A stretch of 64,000 nucleotides of DNA, taken from assembly GCA_004431415.1 (NCBI GenBank), contig QPMI01000007.1, positions 21,532 to 85,531 of the forward strand, read 5' to 3'. This DNA comes from Cyanophora paradoxa CCMP329. Taxonomy: Eukaryota; Plantae; Glaucophyta. Below the pieces are notes generated by a model that did not search any database, was not told where the DNA came from, and saw only the letters and a list, made by a program, of their open reading frames with translations. A program made the translations under genes and the position numbers. This document shows, piece by piece, positions 1-60,000 of the stretch (positions within the stretch are counted from its first letter, which is position 1; each line of letters begins with the position of its first letter).

Positions 1-14
1 AGGCGGGGGTACAG

Positions 15-248
15 GTGAACGAGTTCGATCGCCCGACGAACGTCGGCGAGACCCCCCCGCTCGAGCTCTTCGGCCTCGTCGACGTGCCCGTCATCGGCGA
101 CAAGCGCGTACCCCCCTCGAAAACCCCGTACCCCCCTCCTAACTTCGTTCGCAGGTGGGCGGACCTCGGGATCGTGTGCATCTTCTGGGCCGCCTTTCGC
201 GTCTTGACCTGGGTCGCCCTCCGCTACCTCCACAAGGAGCGCCGCTGA
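15..248 (+). CDS. 3' end of an ABCG (White-family) transporter; gene starts before the window
   Basis: Acceptor ...tacag at 14 and an in-frame 51-nt GC-AG intron at 104-154. The spliced text VNEF...LELFGL...KWADLGIVCIFWAAFRVLTWVALRYLHKERR* matches the typical ABCG C-terminus (xNEF motif, last TM helix, basic tail). Confidence 0.75.
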   Translation: MNEFDRPTNVGETPPLELFGLVDVPVIGDKRVPPSKTPYPPPNFVRRWADLGIVCIFWAAFRVLTWVALRYLHKERR

Positions 249-8108: not shown

Positions 8109-8606
8109 GCCGTACAATCAATTAAAATCAAGTCGTCGTGAGTGATAATCACTGAGATAGGATAGTTATCAGTTACAGCCGCGTGGCAGCTGCTGATCAA
8201 TATCATTCTCCGATCATGGCCAGTGGCATGTATAGTCACACTGAGTTAGCGTAAGCGGTCGACGTCGATCTGACGTCGACATAATCGATATCATGATGAC
8301 CATGACGCCGTGCGCGCGGTGACGCTTGAATTTGCTCATGCTAGCCGCGCGCTGAGCGCCCTGCTCGTAATCCTAGTATAGCAACACAGCTTATAATTAG
8401 TTACAAACAGCTTAAGCTGAGGCTATTGACTCACCATGGCATGATCAGTGACTTCACGTGCACGTGCACTGGTGCCTTGAATCGAACAGCAAGCCAGATC
8501 CGTTTTGCTTCAGCTCAAATCTCACGATATTGATCAGGAGTCTACGTATACAGCTACACGGGACAGCAGCAGCCCGAAGCAGCAGTTATCGCGCGCTGGG
8601 CAGGCT

Positions 8607-13174: not shown

Positions 13175-15191
13175 ATGGCGAGCGCTGTAGCTGTCATTAG
13201 GAGGCGCGCGGCGAGCACCTGGGCCGCCCCACCGCTCCAGCCGCAGCGCCGCGTCGTGGTCACGGGGATCGGGCTTGTGACCCCTCTGGGCGTCGGCGTG
13301 GAGCGCGTGTGGTCGCGCCTCACCGCAGGCGAGACCGCTGTGCGTGCCCTGGCCGGGGACGCGTTCGCGCAGTTCCCGTCGAAGGTCGCGGCGCAAGTGC
13401 CGCGCGGCAAGGGCGACGGCGAGTTCGACGTCGACAAGTACGTGGGAGCAGATGTACGCGCCCGCGCGCCGCCGCACCGCCGCGCGCCCCGATCCCTCTG
13501 CAGGAGCAGCGCAAGACGTCGCCCTTCATCGATTTCGCGCTAGCGGCGGCCGAGGAGGCGCTCGTTGACGCGCGCTGGAAGCCGAGCGACCCGCAGGCGC
13601 TCGCAAGGACGGTCCGCCGTTCCTCCGACGGCCGCGCCGCATCGCAGTCGTCGCTGAATCGCTGGCGCGGCGCAGGGCGTGGCCGTCGGCGCAGGAATGG
13701 GATCCATAGACGACATTTGTGACGTCTCTAGACAGCTGGATGCTCAGGTGAGGGGCGCTTGCGCTCGGCGCTCGGCCGCGTGGCGCCCGGCCCGACCCGC
13801 CCGCCCGCCCTCACGCCTTCGCAGGCGTACCGCCGCGTGAGCCCGCACTTCATCCCGAAGATCCTCATCAACCTCGCGGGAGGGCTCATCAGCATAAGGC
13901 ACAAGTTCGGGGTGCGCAGGGCGCCCCGCGCCCCTACCCTCCCTCCCCCGGAACTGAAAAAGCAGTACCCCCCCAGGGCCCCAACCACGCCGTGTCGACC
14001 GCCTGCGCGACGGGCGCGCACGCCATCGGCGACGCTTACCGCTTCATCAAGTTCGGCGAGGCAGACGTCCGCCCCGCCCCACCCCGCCGTCCGCTCCCGG
14101 GTACCAGAACCCCGCCGATCGACCGGGGTACAGGTCATGGTCGCGGGGGGTACCGAGGCCTCCATCAACCCCGTCTCCTTCGCCGGCTTCAGCAGGCGCG
14201 GCTGCCTATCCCAGTACCCTGCGCGCGCTGAAATCCCGTACCCCCAGAGCAAAGGCCCTCTCGACCAAGTACAACGACCGACCGCATGAGGCGTCGCGAC
14301 CGTTCGACAAGGGACGCGACGGATTCGTCATGGGAGAGGTGCGCTGTACCCCAAACTCGCTTTATGTACCCCTGCCGACGCCGCCCTGCCCCGTCGCAGG
14401 GTTCCGCCATTCTCGTCTTGGAGGCCCGCGCACATGCCCGCCTACCCCTTGCCGAATCGCTTACCCCCCAGCAGGAGATGGAGCACGCGAAGGCGCGGGG
14501 GGCACGCATCTACGCCGAGCTCCGCGGGTACGGCCTCTCCGGTGCGCCTCCCCTCTTCCCCGTACCCCTGCCGCCGCAATCCAAGCGCGGGCCGGGGGGG
14601 GTGTAGGAGACGCGCACCACATCACGGCGCCGAGCCCCGGCGGGGAGGGCGCGCTGCGGGCCATGCGGACGGCCCTGGCGGTCTCGGGCCTCGCCCCCAC
14701 TGACATCGCGTACGTCAACGCCCACGCCACTTCTACCCCGCTCGGTCCGCCGTACCCCCCTCCCGCTTCATCCCGTACCCCCCCTTACCCTACCCGTCCG
14801 CAGGGGACGAAAAGGAGGCGGGGGCGATCGCGGCGCTGCTGGGGCCCGCGGGCGTGGCCGGCGCGTCGGTCTCGAGCACGAAGGGCGCCGTGGGGCACCT
14901 CCTGGGAGCCGCCGGCGCGATCGAGGCCGCGTTCTCCGTCCTGGCCGTCCACCGCGTGCGCCCGTACCCCCCTCCCCCCTCCCCCCCCCCACCCTCGGCG
15001 CCTCCCGACGTGGCCTCGCGCAGGGCGTCGTGCCGCCGACGTGCAACCTGAGCGAGCCGGACGTGGGCGAGGCCGGCGCCGGGCTGCGGCTGGTGGCGCG
15101 CGAGGCGGAGCGGCGGGCTGTACCCGCCGCCATGTCCAACTCCTTCGGCTTCGGGGGTACCAACGCCTCCCTCGTCTTCGCCCAGATCTAA
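13175..15191 (+). CDS. OXSM: Beta-ketoacyl-ACP synthase II (FabF type), probably mitochondrial
   Basis: Eleven short introns splice to a complete protein: [15 protein letters not shown], catalytic [59 protein letters not shown]. The N-terminal leader is short, Arg-rich and acid-free. Confidence 0.95.
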
Positions 15192-21030: not shown

Positions 21031-23797
21031 TCAGGCGGGGCTCGAGCTGGACGCGGGCGCCGCGGGGTCGGACCCGGAGGGCCCGGCGGAGGGCCCGGGT
21101 GCGGGGCCGGCGAGGGGCGCGAGGGCCGCCTCCACGCGGGGGAGGAGGCGGGCGAGGGAGACACGGAAGCCGCCCGAGGGCGCGTGCGCGAAGGGCAGCG
21201 CCGGGGGCGCCCCCGCCGCCCCGCCGCCGGCTGCGGGCGCGCGGCGGGCGCGGCTGCGGCCCGGCCTCGGCCCCGGCCCCGGCCTCGGAGGGGGCCGCCG
21301 GGGCGGCGAGGAGCGCGCGGCAGCGATCGAGGACGAGGCGGGCCCGCGAGGCGAAGTGGGCCCGGATGAGGCCCTGCGCGGATGGAGTTCGAAGGGGTAC
21401 ATGCACAAACGCGGCGCGCGGGGCCGGGGACGGACCGCGAAGGGGGCCGGCGGGGCGCGCAGGTTCGTGATCATCGTCCGCAGCGAGAGGAGGTACGCGT
21501 TCTCGCTGAGAGGGGGCGGCGGCTCAGGGCGGGCGGGGCGAGGGGCCGGGCCCGAGAGAGGGGAGGGGCTTGCGGGGCCGACCTGTAGGAGCGGGAGTTG
21601 GACGCGCCCTCCTGCGTACCCATCTGGCTCTCGTAGCCTGCGCTGCGCTTTCAGAAGGGGGGGGGTACGGGAGCAAGGGCGGGAGGAGCGAGAGGGGGGT
21701 ACGGCACGCGCCGGCCTCGTTGTAGTACGGGTGCTCGTTCAGCACGAGGCCCTGCAGGGAGACCAGCACCTGGGCGGGGTACGGCGTTCGGTTCGGAGGG
21801 GGTACAGGGGCGGGGGGTACGGGTAGGCACCTGGAGGAGGGTGCTGCGCTGCGAATCCCACTGCTCCCGCCCCTCGCCGTCCCACGTGCCCAGCAGGCTC
21901 AGGCAGACCTTCCCGTTCGTGTCTGCCGCGCCGCCGCGGGCGTGAGCCGAGCGCCGCGGCGGGGGGAGGGCGCGGGAGGGGGGTACGGGCGCGCGCACAG
22001 AGGTTGGGGTTGATGCGCTCGCCGACGTTCCAGTACGTGAGCTTGGGCGGGGACTGGGGGTAGTCCGGCGGCAGCGTCACGTCGAACACGAACACGGCGT
22101 CCGAGTACCTGAAAGGGGGGTATCAGAAAAAGCTGAAGGGGTGGGGGTACGTCGAATCCGAAGCTAGGCGAGGGGGGTACTACGGTACGCACGGGGTGCC
22201 CTCGGGTCCGACGACGAGGGCGGAGAGGAGCGCGGTGTTGTCCTCGTAGGCGCGCACGAAGATGCCCTCTGCGGCCGCGGCGCGAACGAAGGAACGTTCG
22301 CTCAGGGGAGAAAGAGAGGAAAGGAAGGGCCGGGCGACGGCAGCAGCGGACCGGGGAGGGAGGATCGGAGGGCGCGCCACTCGCGTTGGACGCGCGTCGC
22401 GAAGGCCCGCGGGTTGTTCGGCGCCTGCGTCACGCTGCGAGGGGCCCCGTCAGAGGGGACGCGCCGCTGCGCGAGAGGGAGGCCTAGGGTGCTGCACCTG
22501 CTGTCCGCGTGGCGCCCGGGGACCGCCGGCAGCACGGCGAAGGGCGCGCGGTCGTCCGAGGGCGCGGGGCCCGCCTCGCCGCCCGCCGCCGCCGCGCCGC
22601 CGTCGCCCTCGCCGCCCGCCTCGCCACCCTCCTCGCCGCCCTTCCCGCCCTCGTCCTTCTCCTCGTCCCCATCGCCGTTCTCGTCGTCGTCGTCGTCGTC
22701 ACCGCCGCCGCCGCCGCCGCCGCCCCGCCGCCGCTGGCCGCCGCCGCTGTGCCCGAGGCCCGTCGCCGCCGGACCCGCCGCGGCCGCCTCGCTTCCGCCT
22801 CCTCGTCATCCTCCTCCTCCCCAGGCGGCGCCGCCGACGGGCCCTGCGCGCCCGAGCCGATCAGCCGCCTGTGGCCGAGCGGAGAAGCGCGCGCGAGGGC
22901 GCACCCCGAAGTGGTTGCGGGCCCACTCCCAGGAGCGCTGCAGGAAGCCGCGGAGGGCGCCGCCGGGCTGCTCGGGCCCGCCGGGGCCGCCCTGCCCGCC
23001 GGCCGAGTCGCGCAGCGCCTGCTCCAGCGCGCCGATGAGCTCGGGCGGCAGGTTCATCGCCACGCTGCCGCTGCGCGCCGTCCGCAGCAGGTTCTCGATC
23101 GTCGCCGCCGCCTCGGGCGGGAGCGACGGCCCCGCCCCGCGCCCGCCGCGCCCGCCGCGCCCGCCGGCCCGCCGGGCCCGCCGGTGCCCTCGGGGCGTTC
23201 AGACGGATGGCCTGAAGTCCCTCCACGAGGTTGCCCACCAGAACGACGGCCACTGCGGCGAGAAGTGAGGTCAGAAGGCGGCGGCACCGAGAGCTCGACT
23301 GGGGCGCCGGCGCACTTCGGCTGTTGGTGGCGGGGTCCGCGGCCCCCGCGATCTCTGAGAAGGCAAGGGGCGCGCCCTGCTGCCCGGCCCGCCGCAGGGC
23401 GGCCTGGATCGCCTCGTTCACGTGGGGCGGCAGCGGGCCCGCCATCGTGCTGAAGCGGGGGTGCGGCGGCGGAGGCTGGTTCGGCAGCCGCCCCGACCGG
23501 CCCGCGCGCCTCCCGCCCGCGCCCGGCTCCCGCCGGTTGCCCTTCGGCGTCTGGCCCGCCCCGCGGGCGCCGCCGCCGGCCCCGCCCGCCTCGTAGTGGG
23601 CGGGGTCCTCGTTACTCGCCACCTCCCAGCCGCCCTCCTCGTCGTCCTCGTCCTCGTCGTCCTCCTCGTCCGACCCGCCCTCTCCCGCATCTTCTTCCTG
23701 CTCGCCCTGCCGGAGAGCGAAAGAACGAACAAGTCAGACCCGCGGCGCGGAGCAGCACATCGCAGCGCCGCCCACCGTCCCCTCGTCCCCGTCCTCA

Positions 23798-23838
<41 letters not shown>

Positions 23839-26800
23839 CCCCTCCTCGTCCTCCTCGTCTTCCTCGCCCTCCTCGTCGTACTCGTCGTCCTCCGAGACGA
23901 CGTAGACCTCCGAGGGCCCCACCCACGAGCTCGTGTTGTCCGACCACGTCACCTGGCCCTCAGGTGAGCCGGGGGGTACGACAAGAGAAAGACTTGGGCG
24001 CAGCAGCGCACGTGCAGGAGGCCGCCGTGCATGGAGACCAGCTCGCCGACCCAGCGGGACTGGAGCGCGGGGTCGAGGTGGTGGCACGTGTGCCCGTGCC
24101 GCCCCTCGCCCCCGCCCTCGCTGGACCCGCCCTCGCCCTCCCCGCTCGAGCTCGACCCTTCCTCGCCGCTCTCGCCCTCGGCCACAGCCTCGCCGCCCTT
24201 GCCGTCCGCCGCCGCCCCCCCCGCCTCCTCCTCCTCGCTCTCCTCGCCGCTGCTGCTGTCCGAGTCGTCCAGGGGGATCGGCACCGGCTCCAGCCGCACC
24301 ACGACGTCCCCGAGCCTGCAGAGCTGTAAGCTCCTCTCTCTCAATCTCTCCCTCTCTCTCTACTCTCTCGCACCGGTAGGCGTAGTCGGGGTGCTCGACG
24401 ATGTCGTAGACGGAGACGGTCTCCTCCTTGACCGTCGGGTCCACCGTGATCGTCCCGTCCGAGTGCGTCCGCTGCGGCCGGGCGCGTCGGCGACGGACCG
24501 CGGGCGGGCGGGAGAGGGAAAGCCGGAGGACGGGTAAGCTTAGGCTTATTATCTTCTTGCGCGTCGGCGATGGAGGAGCAACAACAGCTCTAACAAGGAG
24601 ACGACGGCGGTGGGAACAACAGCTCTGCCACGGCACGCACCATCCAGCGGATGACGGCGGTGCGCTCCGCCACGTTGACAGAGAGCACGACACCGGCACG
24701 GCGCTGCGGGGCTTTGTTTGAGACGGGGCGGAGATATGAGAGCTGGGGCCGGGGGCGCGCGGGCCTTGAGGGCGGCGGTGCGCTTGCGGGCCTCGACGAC
24801 CGACTCCTCGCGCGAGAGCTCCGGCGCCTCGTCGCCCTCCCCGTGCTCCCCGTTCGCCTCCCCGTTCGCCTCCCCGCCGCCAACTGCTGCTGCTGCCGGC
24901 GCCGCCGCCGGAGCCGGAGCCGACTCCGCCGGACTCGCCTGACTCGCCGCAGCCTCCCCGGCCTCGCTGGGGGCCGGGGCCGCCTCGGCGGCGGAGAGGG
25001 CGAGGGCGGCCTGCAGGTCGCGCTGCTCCTCCTCGTCCTCGCCCTTCTCCAGCACGAACTCGTCCGGCCAGAAGTCGTGCGCCTGCGCCCAAACGATCAG
25101 ACGGAGACGCGAAGGCGAGTTCGCGCGTTCGCGCGCGCGCGCGCCTGGAGGTGCGAGGCCGGGAGGAGCTTCGTGGACTCCACGTCGCGCTCCACCGAGC
25201 CGTCCTGCCACTGCACGTCCACGCTGGTGTAGACCCGCGTCACCTGCGCGCACTGCGCCAGCGGGCTGTTCTTCTTCGCCGCCCGCTTCTTCTTGGCGGG
25301 CGCCTGCTGCCGGCTCTGCCGCCGCCGCGAGACGCCGCTCGCCACCGCCGCCATGACCCGCCGCAGGCCGGCCACCGGCCCGGAGGACGAGGAGGCGGAG
25401 GCCGCCGGCGCGTCGCATCCGTCGCTGTCGGCCTCTGCGCCTGCGCGGCCGGCCGGCCGGTAAGAGGAGAGTGTAAAAGAGCGCAGGAGAGCGCCGCCGC
25501 CGCACCGTGCGCCGCCGGCTCCTTGGTCTTGCTCCGCTTGGACTGCTCGGCGTACTCCTTGATGGACTCGGGGTCCGTGACGGTGTGGTCGCCCAGCTGC
25601 CACCAGGTCGCGCAGAAGACGGACATCGGCTGCAGCACCGCAGGCTCGCAGGCCTCAGGGGGCGGGTCCGAGTCGTCCTGCCCGTTCGCCTGCCCGTTCC
25701 TCGGCGTCAGCGGAGGCGGTGGCGGCGGCGGCGGAGGCGGCGGCGCTGGGCGCGCGCACCGCAGTGATCCAATCGACGAAGACTTCGGAGACAGTGACCG
25801 AGGCGACGGTGCCCTCCAGCCGGTTGCGGAAGGTGCCCTTGAGCCAGCGCCCCTGCTGCAGCACCCGCGCGCTCGTCGCCCGCACCCGCTGCGCGGCCGT
25901 CGGTCGGTCGGCCGGTGGTCGAGCTGAGCGCGGGCGGGCGGGCGGGCGGGGGCGGGCGCGGCGGCGCGCCTGCGTGGGGAAGAACGGCGTCTGCTCGTCA
26001 AAGGCCTCGTCCAGCGGCGTCAGGACGTCCGGCGTCGCGTTCTGGATCTTGACCTGCGCCCGGCGCGCCGGCGCGCCCCGCTCGACCCGGGCGCCGCGCG
26101 GGGCGGGGCGGGGCGGGCGGGAGGGCAACGCGGCGCACCTGGTGGCCGTCGTCGAACTGGATAACGACGTCGTCGCTCACCTGAGGGCGCGCGCTCGTGG
26201 GCCGGCGGGCGGGCGGGCGGCCCGGCACCGGCGGGTCGGAGAAGGGGCGCACGCTCTCGACTCGGCCGAGCCAGAAGCCGTGGGTCACGTAGTGGCCGGG
26301 CCGGAACTGCCGGATGTGCCCGAGCTTCTCCGAGGGGACGCGGCGGCGCTTCTGCCCGCTCTGCAGGTACTTCAGGTCGACCGCGACTTTCACGCTCGTC
26401 ACCGTGCCGCTCTGGCCGCCCACGGGGTCTCCCACGCGCACTACGATGTCTCCATGCCTGCGTCTGCGTAAGTGGGGGGGCGGGGGGCCCCAGCGCCGCC
26501 CGCCCGGCGCACATGAACGACCTGCGCAACGGCGGGCGGTGAGATGCGCGGAAGCGCGGGGCGCGGCGGGCGCCAGGGCAATCCCGACGCGCGCGAGCAC
26601 CTGTCCACGAGCTCCAGACTGCTTTCCGACTCCATCTTGTTGTCGACTGACTTCAGCCAGGCGACAAGCGCAGAACCCGGCGGGACCTCCTCCTGAAATG
26701 GCTGTCAGCGCACGGGAGAGGCCGTCGGCTCATTCAAGTACCTCATAGTCGTCCTCGTCGTCCTCGGGCTCATCCGTGGACGTCTGAGGAGGAGCCCGAC

Positions 26801-34099: not shown

Positions 34100-34520
34100 C
34101 CTTTTTAACAGTCAGTTTGTCCCATATTACGACAAGTCGCACTAAAGCTTAATAATGACAGTTCCCTTTCTTCTCAGCTTTGCACAGACCTTTGGTACCC
34201 CCGTCTTTCTCTCCCCTCGGTTGTAAATCCTACCTTTTGTCCACACACACCTTCCGCGTCCCGCAGCTGTTCACTACCTTTCGATTAGTCACTTTCAGAA
34301 CGCGGGACATTAGAGGGTGTAGGTGGGTCCAGTCAGGCCGCAAGCCATGTCCGAACGCTTGAGAGTCTGCGCGATGTGTTTTTTTCCCAGTTGCCTGATG
34401 CCCTGTACAATAATCAAAACAGTTATCTCTGAGCCTAGATCCGCAGCTAGTCGTTTTCAGGAGTTTGTACACTTATCCCAGTGACCTTGCAGTTCCTCTG
34501 TTCAATTTCTTAGTACAGGT
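34100..34520. mobile_element. Dispersed repeat B, copy 1 (~420 bp, lower GC, non-coding)
   Basis: Aligns end to end with 43910-44369 in the same orientation, with sharp boundaries (CCTTTT(T)AACAG...TAGTACAGGT). It sits ~50 bp after the Mei2-like stop codon. Confidence 0.8.
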
Positions 34521-42168: not shown

Positions 42169-43230
42169 CAGCCGCGCGCCTCGACCCGTCGCGCGACTTC
42201 GGCGCCTGTGGCCATGGCGCCCGACCGCAGCCCTCGCGCCGCGTGCGATCGATTCAGGCAGAGCAGCTACTGCACGCACTCTGGTGCCCCGAGCCGTACC
42301 GCCGCGCGCGTGTTCGGCGCCGCCGCCGCGTCCCTCCTCTCTCGCCTCACAACCGCCGCAGCAAGCGTTTGGAGCAGTTGTGACGCGCTCCGGACGGCGG
42401 CAGGACGCGCGGACGCGGCTTATGCGCGCCCGCGAGGCGAACGTCGTCTAGGCTCGGGCACACGCGGAGGCTGCGCGGGCCGCACCCGACCCCGCGCGAC
42501 CTAAGCGGACCCTTTCCTCGTCCCCGCCGCGTACGGGTGCGCTTCGGCCCGGCGCCGCCACCTTCGAGCCTGCTCCCCGCCCCTCTCACACCCGGCCAAA
42601 CAGTATTTTCGATGTACCCCTCCGCCACGGTGCCGCCGAAGCCCCGAAGGCACATCGCTGGAATCTTCTTTTCATTCCCGATCGAACGGTGTGCGGCACG
42701 CCGCCGGGGTGCATCCAAAGTACCCGTACCCCCCCTGCCCCTCCGGACTCTACCTTCGCCCCAGGACCCCGTTGAACTTTTGCCCGCCCCTCCCGAGCAC
42801 GGGGGATCCGATGGTGCGTGTCGCGCCGCCCGTAGCTGCATTCGCGAGGCGCTGGAACCGAGGGTGGCCCTCCGAGCAGGTACCCCGGCCCTCCCAGGGC
42901 GCGCCCCGCGGCCGGCGCGGAGCGCTCAGCCTCGGAGCCCCGTACCCACGAGCCCGAAGCGCTGGAGCCGAGCCCGACCCTCTCAGCAGGTACCCCGCCG
43001 GCACCCCCGAGACCTGCCCCGCGGCCGGAAGGCCCCTCCCCTCGCCTCGGGCGCTCTGTGAGCTTTGGACGCCCGGCGCGGACCGCGGAGGAGGGGGCGG
43101 GGTCGCTGGCGCGCCTGGCGCGGAGGAGGGGGCGGGGGGAGGCCGGAGGCGCGGGCGGCGGGCGCCCCGGGCCCGGCCTCCCGTCTCCCGCGCCATCGCC
43201 GGCGGGCGGCCGTCACCCTCGCGCCCCCTT
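42169..43230. repeat. Dispersed repeat A, copy 1 (~1 kb, probable non-autonomous element or segmental duplicate)
   Basis: The core (42486-42650) is near-identical to 50122-50286; homology to ~49690-50795 decays outward; same orientation. Confidence 0.8.
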
Positions 43231-43909
43231 CGAGGCGCCGCGGCGCTCGCAGGGCGCAGCGGCTCGCGCGGCGGCGCTGCTGCCCGACGCCGCCCCTTCT
43301 CGTCCGTCCCTCCGGCCGTCCGGGGAGCCCCTGCCCCGTCCTTCAGCCCCGGGCCCGGGCGGCGGCGCGGGAGGAGGTGAGGCCGTCCGCGCGACGGCCG
43401 GCGCGCCGCCGGCCTCTGGCGAGAAGGCCACCGCCGCGCCGGCTCCGCCGCGCCGCCGCGCGCGAGAGACGTCTTCGGGCGCTGCTGGTGTTAGACTCGG
43501 CGCTGCAGCGGCGCCCCCCCGGAGAATCCTGGGACCTTCAAGTTCTTCCAGGTACCCCCGTCCGTCCCTTCCTTCTTTCTCCCCCCCCTACCCCCCTCTC
43601 CCCTCTTCCCGACTCGCGCGCGGGTGCGGCGCAAGTACAGGGGGGAGGGTATCGGCGCTGCGCCCCTCCATTCCGGTGCCGCCCCCCGCCCGGGCTGATC
43701 CCGCCCTGCTGATCCCGCTGCCGATCCCCGCTCCCAGGCACCGCAAGGGCGCGGCGGAGGCGGGCGCGGCGGAAGGGCCGCCCCCCTCGCAGGCCTCCTT
43801 TCTGTTTCTTTCCCTCTTTTCCTCTTGGCCCCGGAGCTCTGGATCCCCAGAGCTCTGGATCGGGGTCGGGGGCTTGCCCCAGAGCTCTGGATCCCCCGGG
43901 CGGCCCGGG

Positions 43910-44020
43910 CCTTTTAACAGTCAGTTTTTCCCATATTACGAAAAGTCACACTTAAGCTTAATATTGACAGCTCCCTTCCTTCTCAGTTTGCACAGACCTT
44001 TGGCACCCACGTCTTAAAGC

Positions 44021-44054
<34 letters not shown>

Positions 44055-44369
44055 TGTAAATCCTACCTTTAAAAATTTGTCCACAGACACCTTCCGCGTC
44101 CCGCAGCTGTTCACTACCTTTCGATTAATCACTTTCAGAACGCGGGACATTAGAAGGTGTAGGTGGGTCCTCAGAGTCCTGTCAGGCCGCAAGCCTTGCT
44201 CCAATGCTTGAGAGTCTGCGCGATGTGTTTTTTCCTCAGTTGCCCAATGCCCTGTACAATACTCAAAACAGTTATCTCTGAGCCTAGATTTGCAGCTAGT
44301 CGTTTTCAGGAGTTTGTACACTTATCCCAGTGACCTTGCAGTTCCTCTGTTCAATTTCTTAGTACAGGT
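43910..44369. mobile_element. Dispersed repeat B, copy 2
   Basis: Aligns with 34100-34520 and carries an expanded poly-C run and small insertions. Confidence 0.8.
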
Positions 44370-49689: not shown

Positions 49690-50795
49690 ACAGCCGCGCG
49701 CCTCGACCGCGTCCGAGTTCACTGACGCGCGACCGTCGGACCACGTGCACAGCGGCCATGGCCACAACGCGCGATCTAGATCTGCAGCTGGTGCGCCGCC
49801 GCCACGTCCCTCATCTCTCGCCTCACAGCCGCTGCAGCGCGCGTTTGGAGCACTTTGAGATCTAGATCTGACGCGCTCCGGAGGGCGGCAAGACGCGCGG
49901 ACGGGGCTGGAGTGCGCCCGCAGGCAGGCTCGGGCAGGCGCGGAGGCTGCGCGGGCCGCACCCTCCGGGCTCCGCCGCCGGGTCCTTCCTCTCTCGCCTC
50001 GTAGCCGCCGCAGCGCTTGTTGTGAGGCGCTCCGTATGGAGGCAGGACGAGCGGAATGGGCTGGAATCCGAGCCCGGGCAGGCGCGGAGGGCCGAAGGCC
50101 GCGCAGACTCCAACCCGGTGACCGACCCCGCGCGACCTAAGCGGACCCTTTCCTCGTCCCCGCCGCGTACGGGTGCGCTTCGGCCCGGCGCCGCCACCTT
50201 CGAGCCTGCTCCCCGCCCCTCTCACACCCGGCCAAACAGTATTTTCGATGTACCCCTCCGCCACGGTGCCGCCGAAGCCCCGCAAGCGCACCGCTGGAGT
50301 CCACTTGTCATTCCCGATCGAACGGTGTGTGGCACGCCGCCGGGGTGCGTCCGAAGTACCCGTACCCCCCCTACCCCTCCGGACCCGACCTTCGCCCCAG
50401 GACCCCGTTGGACTTTTGCCCGCCCCTCCCGAGCACGGCGGATCCGATGGTGCTCGCCGCGCCGCCCGTGCCCACGAGCCCGAAGCACTGGAACCGCGAC
50501 CGACCCTCTCAGCAGGTACCCCGGCGCCCCCCGGGGCCGGCCCCACGGCCGGAAGGCCCCTGCACTCGCCTCGGGCACTCTGTGAGCTATGGGCGCCCCG
50601 CACAGACCGCGGAAGAGGGGGCGGGGTCGCCGGCGCGCCGGGGCCGAGCCCGGAGAGGCCGGAGGCGCGCGCTGCGGGCGCCTCGGGCCCGCCCGACCGC
50701 AGACAAGGGCGAAAGGGGCGGCGAAAGTCGTCGGTTCGAGCCCGGGGCCCGCCCCCCCGCCCCCCGCGCCCCTCGCGGGCGCCCTCGCGCCCCTT
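49690..50795. repeat. Dispersed repeat A, copy 2 (with an extra ~150-bp internal subunit)
   Basis: Homologous to 42169-43230; ~49795-49960 and ~49970-50105 are diverged tandem subunits. Confidence 0.8.
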
Positions 50796-50944: not shown

Positions 50945-51802
50945 ATGGCCAGCGGCAGCGCAGGCGCGCCCCCGTCGGTCGCCGCGTCGGTGCTGGTCTG
51001 GCCCGCCCCCGTGGCCCTCGAGTGGCTGCGCCGAAAGTGCTTCATCCCCGAGGCCTCCCCCGAGTCCGATGCCCCCACGCCCTTCCCGCGGCCCGCAGCG
51101 CCGGCCTGACCCCAGCGCGTCTCGCAGGCTGCAGTGCCTGCGACGGCTGGCGCTGACGGGGCGGGCACTGCTGATGCGGCCGGCGGAGGCGCTGCGGGGC
51201 CGGCTGCTGGAGAAGCGGCGGGAGCTGTACCCCGACGCCGGCCTCGAGCTCGTCGACGCCCTCGACGCGGTCCTGGACGCCCTCGACTACGAGGTGCGTG
51301 TCCGTGTCCGTGCGCGGGCGGTCTAATCGGCGTACCCCTCGGCTCAGCTGAGCGCTCGCTCGCCCTTCCTTCCGCGGGTGGAGCTCCTCGTCCAAGACGC
51401 CACGCGGCGGTGCGGGAGGCCCTCCCCTGGCCTATAATTAGCCCCCGTACACTCAGTGCTCTCGCCGAGTCGTACCCCCCGGTCCCTAGGCCTGAAGCTC
51501 ATCGTGGGCTCGCCGCGCTCATGATCAGGTGCGGGAACGACAACGCGGCGGCCGGGGAGATCCGGCGTCTCTTCGAGATGCGGTGGACGGCGACGCGGGC
51601 CGGCGGGTCTGGCGCCGGGAAAGGCGGCGAGAACGCGGCGGCTCCGAGGCTCGAGATGCATGTGCATACATATAAAACACGATGGAGGCCTCGGGAGCCT
51701 CCTGCCCGCGGCCCAAGCCCGCGGGAGTACTACGGTATAAGTATGATGATCAATTTCAATGCCGTCAAAGCTTTCTTGGGCAAGCATATATCGGCGTTGT
51801 GA
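50945..51802 (+). CDS. Hypothetical protein with an N-terminal SAM-like domain
   Basis: VLVWPAPVALEWLRRKCFIPE|CLRRLALTGRALLMRPAEALR resembles the SAM pattern W..(V)..WL....(I/L)xG..LL. The later exons are uncertain. Confidence 0.4.
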
Positions 51803-54800
51803 TCATATTCGATATATATGAGCTTACGTCTAGTAGCGGCCCTCCGGCTCGCCGAGGGTGGGCGAGGCGGCCGCCGGCCGCGAGTAGAGCGCCTGCGCCC
51901 TGCGCACGCGAGGGGGCGTCAGGGCCGGGCGCCCCCCAAAAAGGGAAGGCGGGCGGGGGGTACCGGGCGAGGGCGATGGCGGCGTCGGATCCCTCGCGCG
52001 GGGGCAGGGAGAAGCGCTCGATGCGCTGCGCGGCGCCGCTGATGGGCGCCGCCGCCGGCTTGCCGACGGTGCCGGCCTTGACGAGGTCGATGCGGGGCGG
52101 GGGCTTCGTCAGCTCCGCCCACTCCAGCATCTTCTCCTTCATCGCCACTGCCCGCGAACGAAGCCGTCGGCGACGGCGAGGCGGAGCGGAGCGTACCCCC
52201 CGTGGGGAGGAAATGGGAGAAGGGTACCGTCGCGGCGGACGTCGTCGTCGTGGTCGGGGATGAACGCGCGGAGGGCCCACTGCGCCGCGCGGCCGCCCGG
52301 CCCCCGTCAGCTCTGGGTTTTTTTTTGGGGGGGGGGACGGGGGAGGGGGGTACCTTGATGCCGAAGACGACGTGCTCGACAGCGACGAGGGTGAAGAGCT
52401 TCCAGAACTTGGGGTTCTTGGGTGGGGAGGGGGCGGGGCGTGAGGGGGGTACGGGTGCTGGGGAGGGGAGGGGGGTACCGGGATGCCGCGCTTGGTGAAA
52501 ACCTCGTCGACGGAGGTCGAGACGAAGCAGAGGATGAGCACTGCGGGGGCGGAGGGTGAGCGCGGGCGGGGCGATAAAGGACTAGCTAGCAACGTAGAGA
52601 TCGAGCACTAGGTTTCTTAAGCAGCGCTAGGTTTCTTAACTAGCTAGGTAGAGAGCGCGGCTCGGCTCGGCTCGGCGCGGGCGCAGGGGGCGGACCGTTT
52701 GTGACGATGGCGGCGTTGGACATGATGTCGAGGATGCCGAACCAGGGGCCGATGTCCTTGGCGCCCGAGACCCCGGGCCGCTTCTGGATGCGCATGAACT
52801 TGACTGCGTCCGTCCGCAGCTCCACGATGTTGTTCAGCAGGGCGAGGACGGCCGCGAGGGGGAAGCCCGAGGCGAACAGCGTCACGTAGCCGAATCTTAA
52901 GGAAGGGGTGGGGAGAAGGGGGGGGGGGGGGGGTAGAGTGAGAGGAGGTTCGGCGGGCGGGGGGGGGGGGGGGGGGGGGGAGGGAGGAGGGGGCACTGGA
53001 TGATCATCTCGTTGTAGTCGGCGAAGAGGCCGTCGTAGTCGGGCACTGCCGGGGGGGTTCAGTTCAGGGGGGTAGAGGAGGAAAGGGAGAGGGGCGGGAA
53101 AGCACTGTTCGACTGGCGCTCGATCTGAGTGAGCTGCGAAGGAGAGCCGGTAAGTTATAGGGGGTAAAAGAGCAGGGGGAGGGGGGTACGTGCGCACGTC
53201 CGCGTCGGCGAAGGTGCGCTCCTTGGTGACCTTGCGCTTGCCGTTCTCGCGCCAGAGCGGGAGCAGGCTCTTGACGAAGGGGAGGGCGAGCTCGATGGAG
53301 TTGCCGACGAAGATCTGGACGACGAAGACGGAGGCGAGCTGCTTGTTCAGCTCGAACATGCAGTTGGGGGGCGCCATGCCGTCGCCCACGACGGGCAGGC
53401 ACTGCTGCGGCTTCCCCCCGAAGATCGACGGGCCGAAGTTCTTGACAAAGGCCTGCGAAGGGGGGGCGGAGGGAGGGGGGAGGGAGGGCGGGCGCCCCGT
53501 GCGTGAGCGGGCGGGCGGGCGGGCGAGCGGGCGGGCATCAGAGAGAGGGCGAGAGAAGCCCCGCGCACGATGTAGTAGTAGGCGATGTACTGCAGGAGGA
53601 GGGGTAGCAGGTCAGCGCGGGGCACTTTTTTGGGGGGGGGGGAGAGGGCAGGGGTACGCGCGTTGTTGACGAACTGGAAGAGGAAGACCTTGGAGATGAG
53701 CGAGGACTCGTACTTGGACTGCCACACGTGGTCCTCCCGGTCCGTGATGTACTTCGCAACCTGGCCGACCCGGGTTCGACTCCGCGCGGGGGCAAAACGA
53801 CACGGGATCGATCCCCCCGCGGTGAACTTCGCACCCTGTAGTAAACGAAGTCGAGGACCTTGATCGTGATCGCGCTGGGGGTACAGGATAAGGTGGAGTC
53901 GGGGGAAGGGGGTACGGCAGGAAAAGCGGACAAGGAGGGACCGCCGATGTAGGAGGCCCACTGGGGGCCCTTGTTGAAGTAGAGCCACTCGCGGAGGGCG
54001 AGCAGCGTCATCGCAGCCGCCAGCACGATCTGTAGGGGGGGATAAGGGTGAGGGGGGGTACAGGAAGAGGGGGCGGGGGTGGGGGGTACGGCGCACGACG
54101 ACGGCGGTGGTGATGGCACCGTACCCCACGAGGTACCACTTGCGGAGGAAGTGGTACCGGTGTCCCAGGTCCTTGAACTCGGCCTTGTACACCCAGTCTG
54201 CGGGGGGTACGGCATCAGGCTCTATTAAAAGGGGTTGGGGAGGGGTGGTAGAGGAAGGGGTCGGGATCCGAGACGGGGTTACCGCACCGAAGTGCTTGGC
54301 GTACTTCTTCTTGATGACGGTGTACTCCTTGCGGAGGGGTACCGAGACCCACTCCTCTTCCTTGGTCCAGAAGCCCTCGGTGAGATGGCCCTTGAACTCG
54401 GGCCGCTCGATCTCGGCCTGGGTACGCGCTCGGCCCGTGAGGCAGGGTACGGGAGAGACCCCCGGCGCCGTCTCGGGCGGGGACTGCGTTCGCACCTGCT
54501 CGGTCTGCTCCCAGCGGTGCGCCAGCATGTTCTGGTTCCGCTTCCACCACTCGAGGAAGACGGAGACCGAAATCGCCAGGAAGATGCAGTAGAACGGCAT
54601 CACGTACCCTGGAGGGGGGGATCAGGGCTGGGGGGATGATCTACGGGGGGAGGGCGGGCGGGCGGGCCGGGCACCGTCGTAGGTGTTGTAGGCGCGGACC
54701 TCGGTAAGCCCCGTGGCGGGGTTCACGACGAGATAGTCGTCCCTGTCCTGTTGTTGTTGCACGACGGGCCTCAGCCGCGCGCCTTCTTCTCCCTCCTGGC

Positions 54801-56627
54801 AAGAGCGGAGGGGGAGCGGACCGTGGCCTGGGCGACGAAGACCCCGGCGCCGACCAGCGCGGAGAAGACGAGCCAGACTGCAAGAGAAGAAAGAGCAAGT
54901 AAGAAGGGAAAGGAAGCGGGACAAGAGGAGGAGAGAAGAGGGGGCGGGCGGGGCGCACGGGTGTAGACCTCGAGGAAGCCGAAGTACATCGCGATCGACT
55001 CGCCTGCGCGGCAGGGGGCCTCTCTGTTAGTAGATGTGCGTCTTAGAGTACCCCCCTCGAGCTCGTTCTCCGCACCGAAGTAGTCCCGGATCATGTCCAG
55101 GCGCTCGAAGGCAGGCTTGTAGAGCTCCTTCTCCGCGCGCCCTTGCGCGTCGTACACCACGCGCTCCTTCTTGTACCCCAACCACTGCCGCCCGGGGTCG
55201 GCCAGGGAGGGGTAGGGGGGAAGGGAGACGGGGGTACCTGGAAGAACTTGAAGGGGTCGCGGGATTTGATCCAGCGGTTCTCGAGGACGACGCGCTCCTG
55301 CTCGTCGTGGAGGGGGAAGAACTCCTTCACGTACCCCTCCTCCTGCGCGGCCGGGCGGTGAGCAGCCTGTCGAGGCGGGACCGAAAAAGGAAAGGAAAGA
55401 AAGAGAGCGCACCCGCGACTCGCCAAGGGAGAGGCCGGCGCCGCCGCGTTGCCTGTCAGATGGAATGAGAACAGTGGCGCGAGACGAGCGGATTCGAACG
55501 GCACGAGAGGCCGCACGGGTGCTGCGAGATGAGGGTCTGGAGCTGCGGGGGCGTGAGCGACGGTGGGGCGGGGCGGGGCGGGGCTCCGGCGCGCCATGTG
55601 AATGCGCTCGCGCGAGTTGAAGAAGGCCTGGCCCTCCTGCGGGTCGGCGAAGAGGTGCGCGTGGTTCCGGTTGAACCTGCGCGGCACGCGGCCGGTCAGC
55701 CGCGGGCCTCCGGCGCTGAATGCGGCCGGTCCCGAGCGCACTCCATCTCCTCCATGCCGTCGATCTTGTGGCGGAGCTTCTTCTTGATCTTGAGAACCTG
55801 CGGCGGCGTCGAGTCGCAGATGCAAGAAAGGAGACGGCGCTCGGACCTCGGCGTAGGTCTGGAAAAAGGCCTCGTCGCCGCCGACGAGGAGGAAGTGCTC
55901 CGGGTTCGTGTGAAACCGGCTCTCCTGCTCGTCCAGCATGATGCCCTTGATCTGTGCGCGCGCGGCGGTCGGCGCGCGGGGCTGCAACGGCGGCGGCCGG
56001 GCGGCGACGGGGCGGCGGCAGCGGCGGTCCGGCGGTCCTGTGGCGCGTAGCGCACCTTGCGAAGGCTCTGCTTGATGCTTTCAAAGACCTGCTGGTGCGC
56101 CAGCCCTTGTTTCTTGTTCGACTTGAGCATGTCGCGGTCAAACACAATGACATAGTCAAACCAGGGGCCCTTCGCTGCGCCTGCGAGCAAGCGTTTAGTT
56201 CGTGTGCTTAGCTTTCAAACGTCGTCCCCGGTCGGACGCACCGGTGGCGGCACCGACCGCGGGAAGGTTATCGAACTGCTCGGCGGGAAGCTCGACTTGC
56301 ACAACCTCGGGCTCATTGTCATCCACGAATGTAAGACCATGACCGGCGGCCAGTCCGCCGCCGGTACGTGCGGCGCCGACGCCGGCAGGACGACTGTGCG
56401 ACGTTAGGAAGGCCGCACGGCTAAGGCCGTCGCAAGATGGTGACAGCGAACCCAATACTGCTTTGAGACGATTCGACGTCCTGCTCCTCGAAGCGCGTGT
56501 ATGCGATGCCGCCCCCGAGCTCCGTCGCTCCGCGGGAGCCACGCCTGCGGCGCTAGGCGTTGGCTAGACGCTCCAGCGCATGCGCCAGCGTTCCTGCTCA
56601 CCCCTGAAGGGCCTTCCGGCTCGCCAT
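51765..56627 (-). CDS. Anoctamin / TMEM16 family Ca2+-activated channel or scramblase
   Basis: [89 protein letters not shown]. The start and exact stop are less certain. Confidence 0.93.
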
Positions 56628-57033
56628 GCCGCCTGCCTCAGGCTAGATGCACGCTCGGTACCCTCGACCTTCGGTTAGGCTGCTGGACCGGTACGTGAAG
56701 TTTCGCGTGCCGGTCACCGCAGCTGCAGCCTGCAGCCGGTGAGCCTCGAAGAGCGAAGCGTTTGCGATCGATATATCGCTAGCGCTGCGCGCTCGGCCGG
56801 CCGACTGGCGGACCCCCGGATCAAATTCGACGTCGACGTCGACGTCATGCCTCTGTGAGGGCTCCGAGCTAGGCTCGCTCGGCATGCAGGCTTGAAAAAC
56901 CCCAAGCCCGGCGCCACGCGGCAGGCTCCGGCAGGTCTAGCTCGCGCGTCACGCACCCAGACGGCTCAAGCTTCCAGCCACACGCCGGCCGCGGCTTTCT
57001 CGCTTTCGAATTCATAGAAGCTAGCTATAGGGC

Positions 57034-60000
57034 CTACAGGAGCCAGGGTACGTCGAGGAGGAGCTCGACGGAGACGAGGCGGCGGGCGACGGCCCACGCC
57101 GCGAAGTACGCCTTCCGCGAGATCCGCCGCTCCGCCACCCGCCTGCCCTTGTTTTAGGGGGTGGAGGAGGAGGGAGAAGCTCCGGGGCGGGGACAGGGAC
57201 CTGGAGCTCGTGGTCTCGATGCGGTAGAGCAGCGGCGAGTAGTTGAGGTGCGCCCGCGCGTTCGTCCTCGTCAGGCCCTCCTCCCCCATCAGGTGCTGAG
57301 GTAATGACGATCGTCAGGGCGGCGTCAGGGATCGTCAGAGGGGGGAGGGGAGGGTGAAGAGGGGGTACGGGGGCACCGCGACGATGCGGGCGGGGCGGAG
57401 GGGCCCCGCGCCCACGCCCTCCTCCTCGATCACCCCCCGCAGGCATTTAAGCTGCGGCGCAGGCTTAAGAGGGCCCGGGAGGGGAGGGGGGGGGGGGGTC
57501 CGGGGGTACGCGCCATGAGAGCGTCGGAGGGGCGGAGGAGGCGCTCCGCGGGCGGGACGGGTACGCCGTCGGCGAGGCGGACGTGGAGGTCGCCGGCCGC
57601 GAGGGCGCCACCGTCCCCGCCGGGCCGCCGGCTCGGGCCCTCCAGGAGCCACTCCAGCAGCTCGCGCGGGGCCGGCGCCGGCGCGCCCCCCTCCGGCCAC
57701 ACCTGCGAGGCGGCCGTCAGGACGCCGCGGCCGGAAAGAAAGAGAGGGGAGGGGCGTACGTCGATCTGGAAGGCGGGGCTGGCGGCGAGGCAGGCGGCGA
57801 GCTCGGCGGGGTGGAGGAGGGCGTGGGCGCGGGCGGCGGCCCAGAGGCGGGAGCGCTGCAGGCGGTCGGCCCCCGCGTCCGACGCGAGGCGGCTCGAGGC
57901 GCGCTCCACGGACTGCAGCAGCACGCGGAACGGCAGCCGCGGCCGCCCGCCTCCCCCCGGCCCCACCCCCGTCCCCGCCCTCGCTGGCGGCGAGGGCGAG
58001 GAGGCGGAGGGCGGTCATGTGGCACAGGCGCACGTCGCCGGCCGCGCCCCGCCGCGCATCGGCCTCCGCGCCCCCGCGGGGCCCACGTACCGCAGCGCCC
58101 GCCCGTCCCGCGAGAGCCGCGCCACGCCCCGCGCCCACGCCCCCTCCCCCTCCTCCTCCCCATCCCCCTCGCCGTCCTCGGCGTACCCCCCGTCCTCGGG
58201 GGGCCGGAAGAGCCCGAGGACGCGGCGGGCCGCCCGCAGGTCCTCCTCGGGGGGGGTACTCTCGGGGTCGAACGAGGGGTCGCGGGCCGCGCGGGCCGCC
58301 GCCGCCACCGACGCGTCCGTCGCCACGCCCGCCGCGATCACCTGAGCGCGGCGAGGGTCGGTCGTCTTTCTCCCTACCCCCCCCCCCCCCACCCCCCGGC
58401 CCGGGGTACGGCGCGCCTGGCGTGCGGCGATCTCGAGGAGGTCGAGGGTACCCGGGAGGCTCTCGGGGAGGTCGAAGACAGTGGCGGGGGCGGCGGGCCA
58501 GCCGGCCACGGAGAAGGCCGCCGAGGCGAGGCGGGGGCCCGGCCGCCCCAGCAGCTCCGCCAGGCGCAGCAGCGAGGCCGGGTGGTACCCCGGGGACGAG
58601 CAGAGGCCCCGCCGGAAGAGCGCGTCGCCCCCCCGGGGGGCGAAGAACGGCGCGGCGCCCTCCAGCACCCGAAGGCACTCGTCCAGCAGGGGTACGTGAA
58701 CGTCCCGGCCCGTGGGGATACCGCTCCGGAAATCCCGCTCCAGCTGCCGCACCCGCTCCCTGCCTCCCTATCAGAGGGGAACGAGAGAGGCGGTGAAGGG
58801 AGCGCCGGGGGGGTACCGGGTGAGGCCGTGCTCGTCGCCGACCTGCTGGAGGGATGGCTGGCTCTCCTGGCCCAGCAGGCCCAGCCGCTGCAGGATCAGC
58901 GACAGCTGCGGGGGGTACGGCGTCTGGTTAGGCGAGGCGTAGAGGGGGATACATGAACAGACCCGCGCAGAGTCGAGGTGCGAGAAGGTTTCCGCGAGAC
59001 TCCACGTGACGTCCTACGGGCCGGTGGGTTCGGTCGAGGGGGGTACGCCAGGAGGGGAGGGGGGTACGCGCCTCGATGGAGTGGGAGGGGCACCACTCCG
59101 AGGGGCCGGGGGAGCCGGAGGAGCCCTCGTCGATCCAGTCCTCGTCGTCCTCCTCCCGCTGCAAGGGGGGGGGGGTACGCCGGCTCAGGAAGGTCTGGGG
59201 CGTGGAGGGGGGGGGGGGGGGGGAAGGCACCTCGGCGTAGGAGGGGAGGGTCGCGGGGTCGAATCCGGCGACGGGGGAGACGATCAGCGGACCGGAGATG
59301 TACCCCTGCGAGGGGGTTCAGAGTACCCCCGGGGACGTCTCGCGGGGGTACGGCACACGACGAAGGGGGGCGAGTCGGCGTCGAAGCGCTTGTTCGAGAG
59401 GCGCTTCTGCGGAGCGGGGCGGGCGTGGGGGGTACGCAAAGGCCGGCGGGGGGTACGGCGCACGGCGAGGGAGTCGAGGAAGCGAAGGAAGGCGCGGAAG
59501 AAAGTGCCGTAGCGGAGGTCCGCGGCGGGGTCGGCCCCGGGCCGCTCGAGGGCCGCCGGAGCGCCCGCGCGCGCCGCGCGAAGCCGCGCCCTGCGCCCCG
59601 CCGCCTCGGCCGCGGCCGGCGCGGCGCGGGGGCGGTGGGGCGGGGGCGGACGCAGGGGAGGTCGGCGCCGGCCTTGGAGGCGCGGGCGAGGGCGGCGGCG
59701 ATGTCGTCTTTGGAGAGATCGCCGACGATGCGGGCGGCCTCGTTGCGGCTGCGGCCGCGGGGCGAGCGGAGGGCGGCGGCGCGCTCGACGCCGAGGGCCG
59801 TCTCGAGACGGGCGAGGGAGGCGGCGATGCGGGCGAGGAGCGAGAGGGAGCGCCGCTTCAGGTACGCCTTCTGCACGTGGTGGCCCCGCTCGAGCGCCTC
59901 CTGCGCCGGGCCCGCCGCCTGCTCCAGTCGCTCCGCCGTCGCCGCGACGCGCCGCGCCGCGAGCGAGCCGGCCGGCGCGAAGGCGACCCATGGGATGCGC

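What the first reader, a model, noticed from the sequence alone, without database searches (positions are those of the whole stretch)
52190..59460. Strand-oriented GTACCCC motif that switches on downstream within gene bodies
Seen: GTAC next to a C run (sense strand usually CGTACCCC) occurs in most introns of the 3' parts of the ABCG, KAS, UBE2O (21400-22200), anoctamin (52190-55340) and 57-60 kb genes, but is essentially absent from their 5' regions. In KAS, hand counts give 3 GTAC in 13175-13960 (none beside a long C run) versus ~17 in 13960-15191. In 57.0-59.5 kb there are ~23. It also enters exons via synonymous choices (GGT ACC, GTA CCC) and occurs in repeat A, while the Mei2-like and TRP genes largely lack it. 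Known: gene-body methylation and linker-associated marks show such 5'-excluded gradients. Inference: this is the footprint of a non-CG gene-body DNA modification site or a splicing/elongation signal.
Basis: partly seen in the sequence, partly recalled or inferred. Interest (0 to 1): 0.78.

Follow-up and report, generated by a model that had tools for sequence, protein, structure and literature searches.

The report
Iterated gene-body DNA word in glaucophyte
A short DNA word, GTACCCC(CC), is packed on both strands into the introns and exons of about half the genes in this stretch of a likely Cyanophora paradoxa genome, stays out of their first 0.8 kb and overrides normal codon choice, which likely makes it an undescribed binding site for a chromatin protein rather than a splicing signal.

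Summary
Real and well above chance. The window is likely Cyanophora paradoxa. Two corrections. (1) The word is not strand-oriented: per C/G run both orientations occur alike in introns (46/237 vs 5/40), and exons hold more antisense copies (12 vs 5). (2) The unit is GTAC plus up to six C, not bare GTAC. It overrides codon choice near intronic copies (13 vs 1.9 in synonymous shuffles; 3 vs 1.7 elsewhere). It is absent from the first 750 bp of six long genes (0/66 runs vs 65/489), but onset varies (0.8-3 kb) and 8 of 15 gene models lack it. Only 5 of 84 are splice donors, and other intronic copies avoid the G that would make one. Published data argue strongly against 6mA and bound, without excluding, non-CG 5mC. 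Best reading (0.5): a selected double-stranded site for an unknown chromatin protein of the elongation zone; no such protein was identified. No paper or earlier scan note on the word was found. All statistics rest on one 64-kb window.

The parts
51957..55337 (.). 18 GTACCCC/GGGGTAC sites in the anoctamin gene body (13 sense, 4 of them donors; 5 antisense)
   Evidence: 29 introns by exact spliced match to P0003, 13 shown as RNA joints
51830..56627 (-). Anoctamin gene, 30 exons; first site 1290 bp after the ATG
   Evidence: PF04547, PF16178
57362..59456 (.). 17 sites in the 57-60 kb gene (minus strand, no Pfam hit; 5' model uncertain): 13 sense, 4 antisense
   Evidence: 1-bp indels vs reads at 57948, 57952, 59164, 59552, 59583
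13965..15160 (.). 11 sites in the KAS gene (13175-15191, +); first at 790 bp; two are GGG GGT ACC (Gly-Gly-Thr) in exons
   Evidence: [10 protein letters not shown] identical in FabF chains
21394..23979 (.). 10 sites, all sense and intronic, in the UBE2O-like gene (21031-26995, -); 9 in the last 1.2 kb, first at 3016 bp
6801..10661 (.). 9 sites in the convergent RING gene (+) and 8.6-12.6 kb gene (-); 4 are exonic antisense GGG TAC
6..134 (.).
51227..51478 (+). 3 sites in a small plus-strand gene convergent with anoctamin; the exception to the 5' exclusion (282-527 bp from its modelled ATG, 350-600 bp beyond the anoctamin stop)
42614..43558 (+). 5 sites in repeat A copy 1 and the adjoining anoctamin-like fragment
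50250..50522 (+). 3 sites in repeat A copy 2, aligned with sites of copy 1 inside conserved blocks

Best explanation
GTACCCC(CC)/(GG)GGGGTAC is a double-stranded 7-9 bp word iterated through the bodies of some genes beyond their first 0.8 kb, and it is likely a selected binding site for a sequence-specific chromatin protein that would act in the elongation zone. Shown: enrichment, both orientations, a width that ends at the sixth C, synonymous override, 5' exclusion, gene-to-gene differences, pairs 20-31 bp apart, avoidance of cryptic donors. Inferred: selection; a protein reader (a zinc-finger or Myb/Reb1-like factor reading the G-rich strand is a guess by resemblance); its job, most likely organising nucleosomes or recruiting chromatin enzymes downstream of the promoter zone, possibly those behind the 3' CG methylation reported in expressed Cyanophora genes. 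The word is built where it costs least: in C-rich introns, on the GT of some donors, on the CAG of two acceptors and at synonymous sites.
For: Near intronic copies (within 250 bp, 1926 of 8664 codons) exons hold 13 seven-mers vs 1.9 expected (0 of 2000 shuffles reach it); elsewhere 3 vs 1.7. Both orientations: sense 6-mer 8 vs 1.4, antisense 12 vs 3.1; anoctamin plus KAS alone 2 vs 0.0 and 6 vs 1.1. Gly is GGG before TAC in 8/8 (49/173 before other codons), GGT before AC in 4/9 (6/172), Val is GTA before Pro in 4/8 (0/93 before non-C codons); from the common codons these need different base changes (inference). Bare GTAC 17 vs 18.9; GATCCC/GGGATC 1 vs 2.6. In 3' introns the C run continues at 72-96% per step to the sixth C (other runs 40-49%), then 5/26 vs 16/27 at the seventh. 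Spacing within introns: 12 of 14 are 20-31 bp (4.3 expected), 1 of 14 under 20 (6.9 expected; uniform null). -1 G: 0/47 non-donor vs 49/304 other internal GT, p=0.001.
Against: No binding protein was identified or tested. No nucleosome-scale period (32 of 400 null sets reach the best peak) and no 10-11 bp phasing (R 0.07-0.17). Onset varies from 790 to 3016 bp; 8 of 15 models have no site, some over 3 kb long; the cut at 1000 bp is not significant. The spacing could follow from the C-rich tail or local duplication. The word is not the Reb1 core TTACCCK (PMC12305957, passages; TTACCCG/T 1 and 2 copies), and SBP factors are reported absent from glaucophytes (PMC7455551, passages). Selection is inferred from composition, without polymorphism or outgroup data. 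One window; 43 doubtful model introns were set aside by eye.
Confidence: 0.5

Rival explanations
1. Neutral accumulation: a context-specific mutation or repair bias acting in transcribed, C-skewed 3' gene bodies would build or protect the word without a function, as proposed for cyanobacterial HIP1.
For: Motif introns are more C-skewed (C 0.54, G 0.19 vs 0.45, 0.28) and nearby fourfold sites lean to C (0.56 vs 0.49), so the zone has its own compositional regime. Intergenic DNA is twofold rich in palindromic 6-mers, a sign of unusual sequence turnover. Elhai 2015 (PMC4390886, abstract) models HIP1 as a product of methyl-directed repair.
Against: Different base changes converge on one word. GCACCCC and GTGCCCC, the intermediates of CpG decay, are not raised (0.79x, 0.74x) and no CpG-deamination footprint is seen. 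The drop at the seventh C is the opposite of what slippage gives. GATC, also a palindrome ending in C, shows no C-run excess.
Confidence: 0.2
2. The word is the target of a base modification that is itself favoured: likely partial 5mC on the C of TA-C-CC by the alga's DNMT3, or a thymine mark that current methylomes would miss.
For: C. paradoxa has 2 DNMT1 and 1 DNMT3. Mouse DNMT3A prefers T,A at -2,-1 and C at +2,+3 (PMC7797059, passages), flanks the word has. One C per site is only 0.48% of CHH in this window, so the reported CHH of 0.53% vs 0.2-0.3% non-conversion leaves room. Expressed genes gain mCG towards their ends.
Against: 6mA in AC context is 0.006% (read as percent from rows such as 10.23 for another species) vs 1.5-3% needed; AMT1 absent. 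No PF01555 N4/N6 enzyme in the proteome. The authors call non-CpG dinucleotides below non-conversion; the site's C is 84 of 13438 CC here. The DNMT3A-best words GTACGCC and GTACACC are not enriched (19 vs 17.9; 6 vs 7.5). Bare GTAC is not enriched. Nanopore calls beside homopolymers may be weak (own knowledge).
Confidence: 0.17
3. An RNA-level signal: GUACCCC would bind a poly(C)- or U1-type factor in pre-mRNA, with exonic GGGGUAC pairing to it.
For: 48 of 53 intronic copies read GTACCCC on the sense strand and 33 of 48 start within 31 nt of the donor. Six G|GTACCC are modelled donors. One intron (59358-59306) holds an 8-bp inverted pair (sequence).
Against: Orientation follows run supply. UBE2O has 10 sense and 0 antisense sites; only 18 of 54 sense sites have an antisense partner within 200 nt, and 3 of 17 antisense sites have none within 600 nt. 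Non-donor copies avoid -1 G. 52 of 87 downstream introns lack the word.
Confidence: 0.13

Closest known systems
Cyanobacterial HIP1 (GCGATCGC; Elhai 2015, PMC4390886, abstract only)
   Same: A short word iterated far above chance, with open function and a possible link to modification or repair.
   Different: HIP1 is a palindrome tied to cognate methyltransferases; this word is asymmetric, eukaryotic, limited to part of some gene bodies, and its palindromic core alone is not enriched.
Internucleosomal CG methylation of prasinophytes and haptophytes (Huff and Zilberman 2014; not read, seen as cited in PMC12344493 and PMC12695648; its effect on codons is recalled)
   Same: A gene-body chromatin feature that enriches its own target sequence and gives way to another state near the TSS.
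   Different: That is a CG dinucleotide with nucleosome periodicity and (recalled) DNMT5; here a 7-9 bp word with no period found, no CG needed, and no DNMT5 listed for C. paradoxa.
Yeast general regulatory factor Reb1 (core TTACCCK; PMC12305957, passages)
   Same: Shares TACCC; an asymmetric site whose protein can act as a nucleosome barrier.
   Different: Strong Reb1 sites are promoter-enriched; this word avoids 5' ends, needs G where Reb1 has T, and the Reb1 core is not enriched here.
SBP/CRR1 GTAC element of green plants and algae (PMC7455551, passages)
   Same: GTAC core, often preceded by C.
   Different: SBP is reported absent from glaucophytes; the C run is required here; bare GTAC and CCGTAC(A/G) (consensus recalled) are not enriched.
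3' gene-end mCG of expressed C. paradoxa genes (Sarre et al. 2025, PMC12344493, section 6)
   Same: Likely the same organism, with a similar unexplained bias away from 5' ends.
   Different: That is a CG metagene signal; overlap with the word is untested and no CpG-loss footprint is seen in the motif zone.

Membership tests
Restriction-type GTAC methylation (6mA or 4mC) | Palindromic GTAC is the target whatever its flanks | tested here: not met
   Exonic GTAC without CC/GG flank 17 vs 18.9 in the zone, 43 vs 45.1 outside
Restriction-type GTAC methylation (6mA or 4mC) | Modified base and cognate enzyme present | not testable with these tools
   Published only: mAC 0.006%; no PF01555 hit in the proteome
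AMT1 ApT 6mA | ApT target just downstream of the TSS; AMT1 gene | tested here: not met
   The word has no ApT and avoids 5' ends; AMT1 count 0 in the published table
Non-CG 5mC by DNMT3 | Methylated C at the site | not testable with these tools
   Bulk CHH 0.53% vs site share 0.48% of CHH: bounded, not excluded
Non-CG 5mC by DNMT3 | DNMT3A-preferred words TACGCC/TACACC favoured | tested here: not met
   GTACGCC 19 vs 17.9, GTACACC 6 vs 7.5
Linker-periodic gene-body methylation | Nucleosome-length periodicity | tested here: inconclusive
   Best peak 125 bp, reached by 32 of 400 null sets; few sites
Intronic splicing enhancer or 5' splice signal | Sense-strand specificity | tested here: not met
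   46/237 vs 5/40 per run in introns; antisense enriched in exons, 12 vs 3.1
Intronic splicing enhancer or 5' splice signal | Use as donor | tested here: not met
   5 of 84 sites are donors
HIP1-like iterated palindrome | Palindromic word | tested here: not met
   Asymmetric; G_C flanks of GTAC 30 vs G_G plus C_C 77
HIP1-like iterated palindrome | Over-representation inside coding DNA beyond codon use | tested here: met
   13 vs 1.9 in the zone
Reb1-type GRF site | TTACCCK core at promoters | tested here: not met
   TTACCCG 1 vs 3.4, TTACCCT 2 vs 1.7
Reb1-type GRF site | Protein-bound nucleosome barrier | not testable with these tools
   Needs footprint or MNase data
SBP/CRR1 element | SBP-domain factor in the genome | not tested
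   Reported absent from Glaucoplantae; no proteome was on hand
Transposon or introner end | Inverted terminal copies at fixed intron ends | tested here: not met
   Copies run in the same direction at variable offsets and arise at synonymous exon sites

The most novel reading that the evidence does not exclude
C. paradoxa writes a sequence code into gene bodies: a 9-bp double-stranded word, selected strongly enough to override codon bias and to remodel splice sites, is read by a dedicated factor that marks the elongation domain of a gene class and directs the 3' CG methylation reported in expressed genes of this alga. That would be gene-body chromatin specified by DNA sequence rather than by Pol II-coupled histone marks alone.
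Probability: 0.25. Interest if true: 0.86.

Novelty: new variant of a known kind. Interest (0 to 1): 0.68.

Why it matters
Gene-body chromatin in eukaryotes is usually seen as laid down by the passing polymerase, without a sequence word. A word that reaches one site per 200-300 bp, bends codon use and spares promoter-proximal DNA would show sequence-specified gene-body organisation in the glaucophytes, a deep branch next to plants and red algae. It also gives a concrete handle on the unexplained 3' methylation of expressed Cyanophora genes, testable on methylomes that are already published.

Tried and rejected
Whole genome: none held, so no genome-wide test. More DNA of this alga or of relatives: metagenome scan gave 1 locus, a fungus-like contig with a local tandem repeat; GTDB scans gave 0 and 98 loci, the 80 listed all titled prokaryote (reused as GC control); the viral scan gave 120 loci, none of those over 2 kb as motif-dense as the window except two 2.3-kb loci with several adjacent matches. 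Supplement of PMC6704402 could not be read, so a k-mer count in its transcripts was dropped. No RNA holder was on record as RNA; contig depth cannot rank genes, so a link to expression was not tested. CpG-deamination origin: rejected. Amino-acid-level excess of GY, GT, VP, YP: none (225, 492, 1255, 738 of 2000 shuffles). Nucleosome and helical periodicity: not found. Site conservation between repeat A copies is uninformative, as the flanks are as conserved; the Mei2 3'-flank copy has lost its site, one case only. tRNA and Rfam: none. Telomere-repeat origin and base J: searches gave no Cyanophora data, left open. SBP reader: rejected on published absence.
Full report
Source. The window is 68% GC with short introns. 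No whole genome is held. One anoctamin exon is 100% identical to EukProt protein tig00000053_g23503.t1 (P0003), and all 885 residues map exactly through 29 GT/GC-AG introns. Price et al. 2019 (PMC6704402, passages; supplement unreadable) use this id style for Cyanophora paradoxa and give 67.6% GC, 9.2 introns per gene and a mean intron of 86 bp. Earlier scan notes name the same alga (unreviewed AI notes). The species is therefore an inference, but a strong one.

Gene models. A self-trained spliced gene finder gave 14 further models. All 13 listed anoctamin RNA joints agree, and 9 of the 10 joints checked in the phosphatase and UBE2O models match in length, one being 6 nt off. I set aside 43 doubtful introns by eye and kept 179, one of them added by hand. 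Start codons of the RING, kinase, Mei2-like, TRP and 57-60 kb models may be wrong. Pfam supports the anoctamin, KAS, UBC, kinase, RRM_2, subtilase, ankyrin and RING labels; 23 of 35 queries had no hit, among them all five from the 57-60 kb gene.

The observation. The hand counts are exact. GTACCCC/GGGGTAC occurs 84 times vs 20.9 expected from an order-3 model, third among all 7-mers after one other pair; vs order 4 it is 84 vs 43.7. GTA precedes a run of four or more C in 84 of 490 cases; the next trinucleotide, CTA, in 18 of 233. In 618 kb of GC-rich prokaryote loci (71 of 77, matches masked) the figure is 73 of 4382. Of the 84, 48 are intronic sense (5 donors), 5 intronic antisense, 12 exonic antisense, 5 exonic sense, 1 in a doubtful intron and 13 outside models.

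Orientation. Introns offer 237 C runs and 40 G runs on the sense strand; 46 and 5 carry the word (p=0.38). Exons: 5 of 194 and 11 of 202 (p=0.20). The apparent strand orientation is the intron C-skew. Two introns end in GGGGTACAG.

Synonymous override. The zone was defined from intronic sites only (250 bp; 1926 of 8664 codons). There, synonymous shuffles expect 1.9 seven-mers and 13 are seen (0 of 2000); outside, 1.7 and 3 (449 of 2000). Both orientations exceed every shuffle for the 6-mer at 150, 250 and 500 bp; anoctamin plus KAS alone give the same, and anoctamin alone is weaker (43 and 21 of 3000). Gly is GGG before TAC in 8/8, GGT before AC in 4/9, and Val is GTA before Pro in 4/8, although GGT is 37 of 860 Gly codons and GTA 12 of 580 Val codons. 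In KAS the FGGTN stretch that carries a site is identical in the two FabF alignments shown; the GYG Tyr is Tyr in one and Phe in the other shown. Bare GTAC, CG, TA, C/G runs and GATCCC are not enriched in the zone. Dipeptides are not in excess.

Shape of the word. In introns beyond 750 bp of motif genes, 46 of 58 sense GTAC go on to four or more C. The run continues at 91, 96, 90, 78 and 72% per step up to six C (other runs 42-49%, 40% at one step), then 19% vs 59% (p=0.005; whole window 25% vs 40%, p=0.11). The modal site is GTACCCCCC. Where an intron has two or more sites (13 introns), 12 of 14 gaps are 20-31 bp and 1 is under 20, against 4.3 and 6.9 under uniform placement. No 10-11 bp phase and no nucleosome period were found.

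Position. In the six long motif genes 0 of 66 runs in the first 750 bp carry the word vs 65 of 489 beyond (p=3e-4); for 14 models, not chosen on outcome, 3 of 135 vs 65 of 617 (p=0.001); within-gene permutation 3 vs 10.1 (6 of 10000). At a 1000-bp cut p=0.14. First sites lie at 790, 840, 1290, 1687, 1975 and 3016 bp; the small convergent gene has three within 530 bp. Eight of 15 models have none, and genes differ beyond 750 bp (p=5e-9). Beyond 750 bp, 35 of 87 introns of the six genes carry it. It is thus a property of some genes, switched on at no fixed distance.

Splicing. All 6 GTACCC donors follow G; none of 47 other intronic sense copies does, vs 49 of 304 other internal GT (p=0.001). I infer that G|GTACCC works as a donor and that copies elsewhere avoid making one, so splicing constrains the word rather than explains it. 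Sense-antisense pairing cannot be general: 18 of 54 sense sites have a partner within 200 nt and UBE2O has none.

Modification. Romero Charria et al. 2025 (PMC12695648; passages, sections 7 and 9, rows of supplement files 5, 7, 9) list C. paradoxa as AMT1-lacking with mAC 0.006, which I read as percent from other rows; the word's adenines are 1.5-3.0% of AC here. Sarre et al. [quoted passage not shown] One C per site is 0.48% of CHH in this window, so partial 5mC is not excluded; their Supplementary Fig. 5, which I could not see, bears on this. Mouse DNMT3A prefers TACGYC and TACACC (PMC7797059, passages), a resemblance in flanks only, since those words are not enriched. Motif introns have lower CG o/e (0.97 vs 1.20 and 1.31) but GC falls too (0.83 vs 1.14 and 1.37), and TG/CA do not rise together. 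These bounds assume the window is typical of the genome.

Reading. A fixed-width, asymmetric, orientation-free word reached by several kinds of base change and kept 20 bp or more from its neighbour fits a protein-binding site under weak selection best (0.5). Neutral mutation or repair bias (0.2), a modification target (0.17) and an RNA signal (0.13) remain.

Prior art. Paper searches (listings) and text look-ups in the two methylome papers (GTAC 0 hits each) found no description of the word; the library lacks most subscription papers. Scan look-ups showed no note on it. Nearest analogues: HIP1 (PMC4390886, abstract), prasinophyte linker CG (cited; the original not read), Reb1 (PMC12305957, passages) and SBP/CRR1, reported absent from glaucophytes (PMC7455551, passages). 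PMC5405695 (passages) gave no telomere repeat for Cyanophora. The word fails membership of each family tested but works like an iterated, codon-overriding genome word, in a eukaryotic gene-body setting.

Verdict. Interest 0.68.

Noticed in passing
window, DNA outside gene models (e.g. 19780-20720, 56700-56860): Palindromic 6-mers are 1.96-fold over an order-2 model (1884 vs 960), against 1.15 in introns and 0.98 in exons; many overlap in chains.
   Followed up: partly
window:42316-44369: Composite repeat: repeat A (83% to 49968-50552), a 48-bp piece of an anoctamin exon-intron junction (43525-43572, 88% to 55219-55266) and a copy of the Mei2-like 3' flank (43912-44369, 85% to 34103-34520); looks like local capture by a mobile element.
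   Followed up: partly
window, introns: The main donor is GTGCG (77 of 179 kept model introns); at least 27 begin with GC, with RNA joints fitting those at 53661, 24764 and 25144; donors without +5 G mostly have -1 G.
   Followed up: partly
window:21259, 57948, 57952, 59164, 59552, 59583: One-base insertions in read contigs relative to the window, likely assembly errors that disturb the UBE2O 3' and 57-60 kb gene models.
   Followed up: no
window:15320-15342: RNA contigs of the convergent KAS and phosphatase genes overlap by about 10-20 bases at their 3' ends; KAS has 11 sites, the phosphatase none.
   Followed up: no
window:35540-35930: Tandem repeat of about 24 bp inside a modelled exon of the subtilisin-like locus, with length variants that shift the frame.
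   Followed up: no
window:5440-6030: Long C/T-rich intron region of the RING gene with several CTACCC but no GTACCCC, showing that C richness alone does not bring the word.
   Followed up: partly
window:53771-53783 and 50735-50745: tRNA T-loop-like GGTTCGA..CC in an anoctamin intron and beside repeat A, seen by eye; ARAGORN and Rfam found nothing.
   Followed up: partly
L173: Archaeal MAG locus with 9 GTACCCC/GGGGTAC in 9.4 kb outside the masked match.
   Followed up: no
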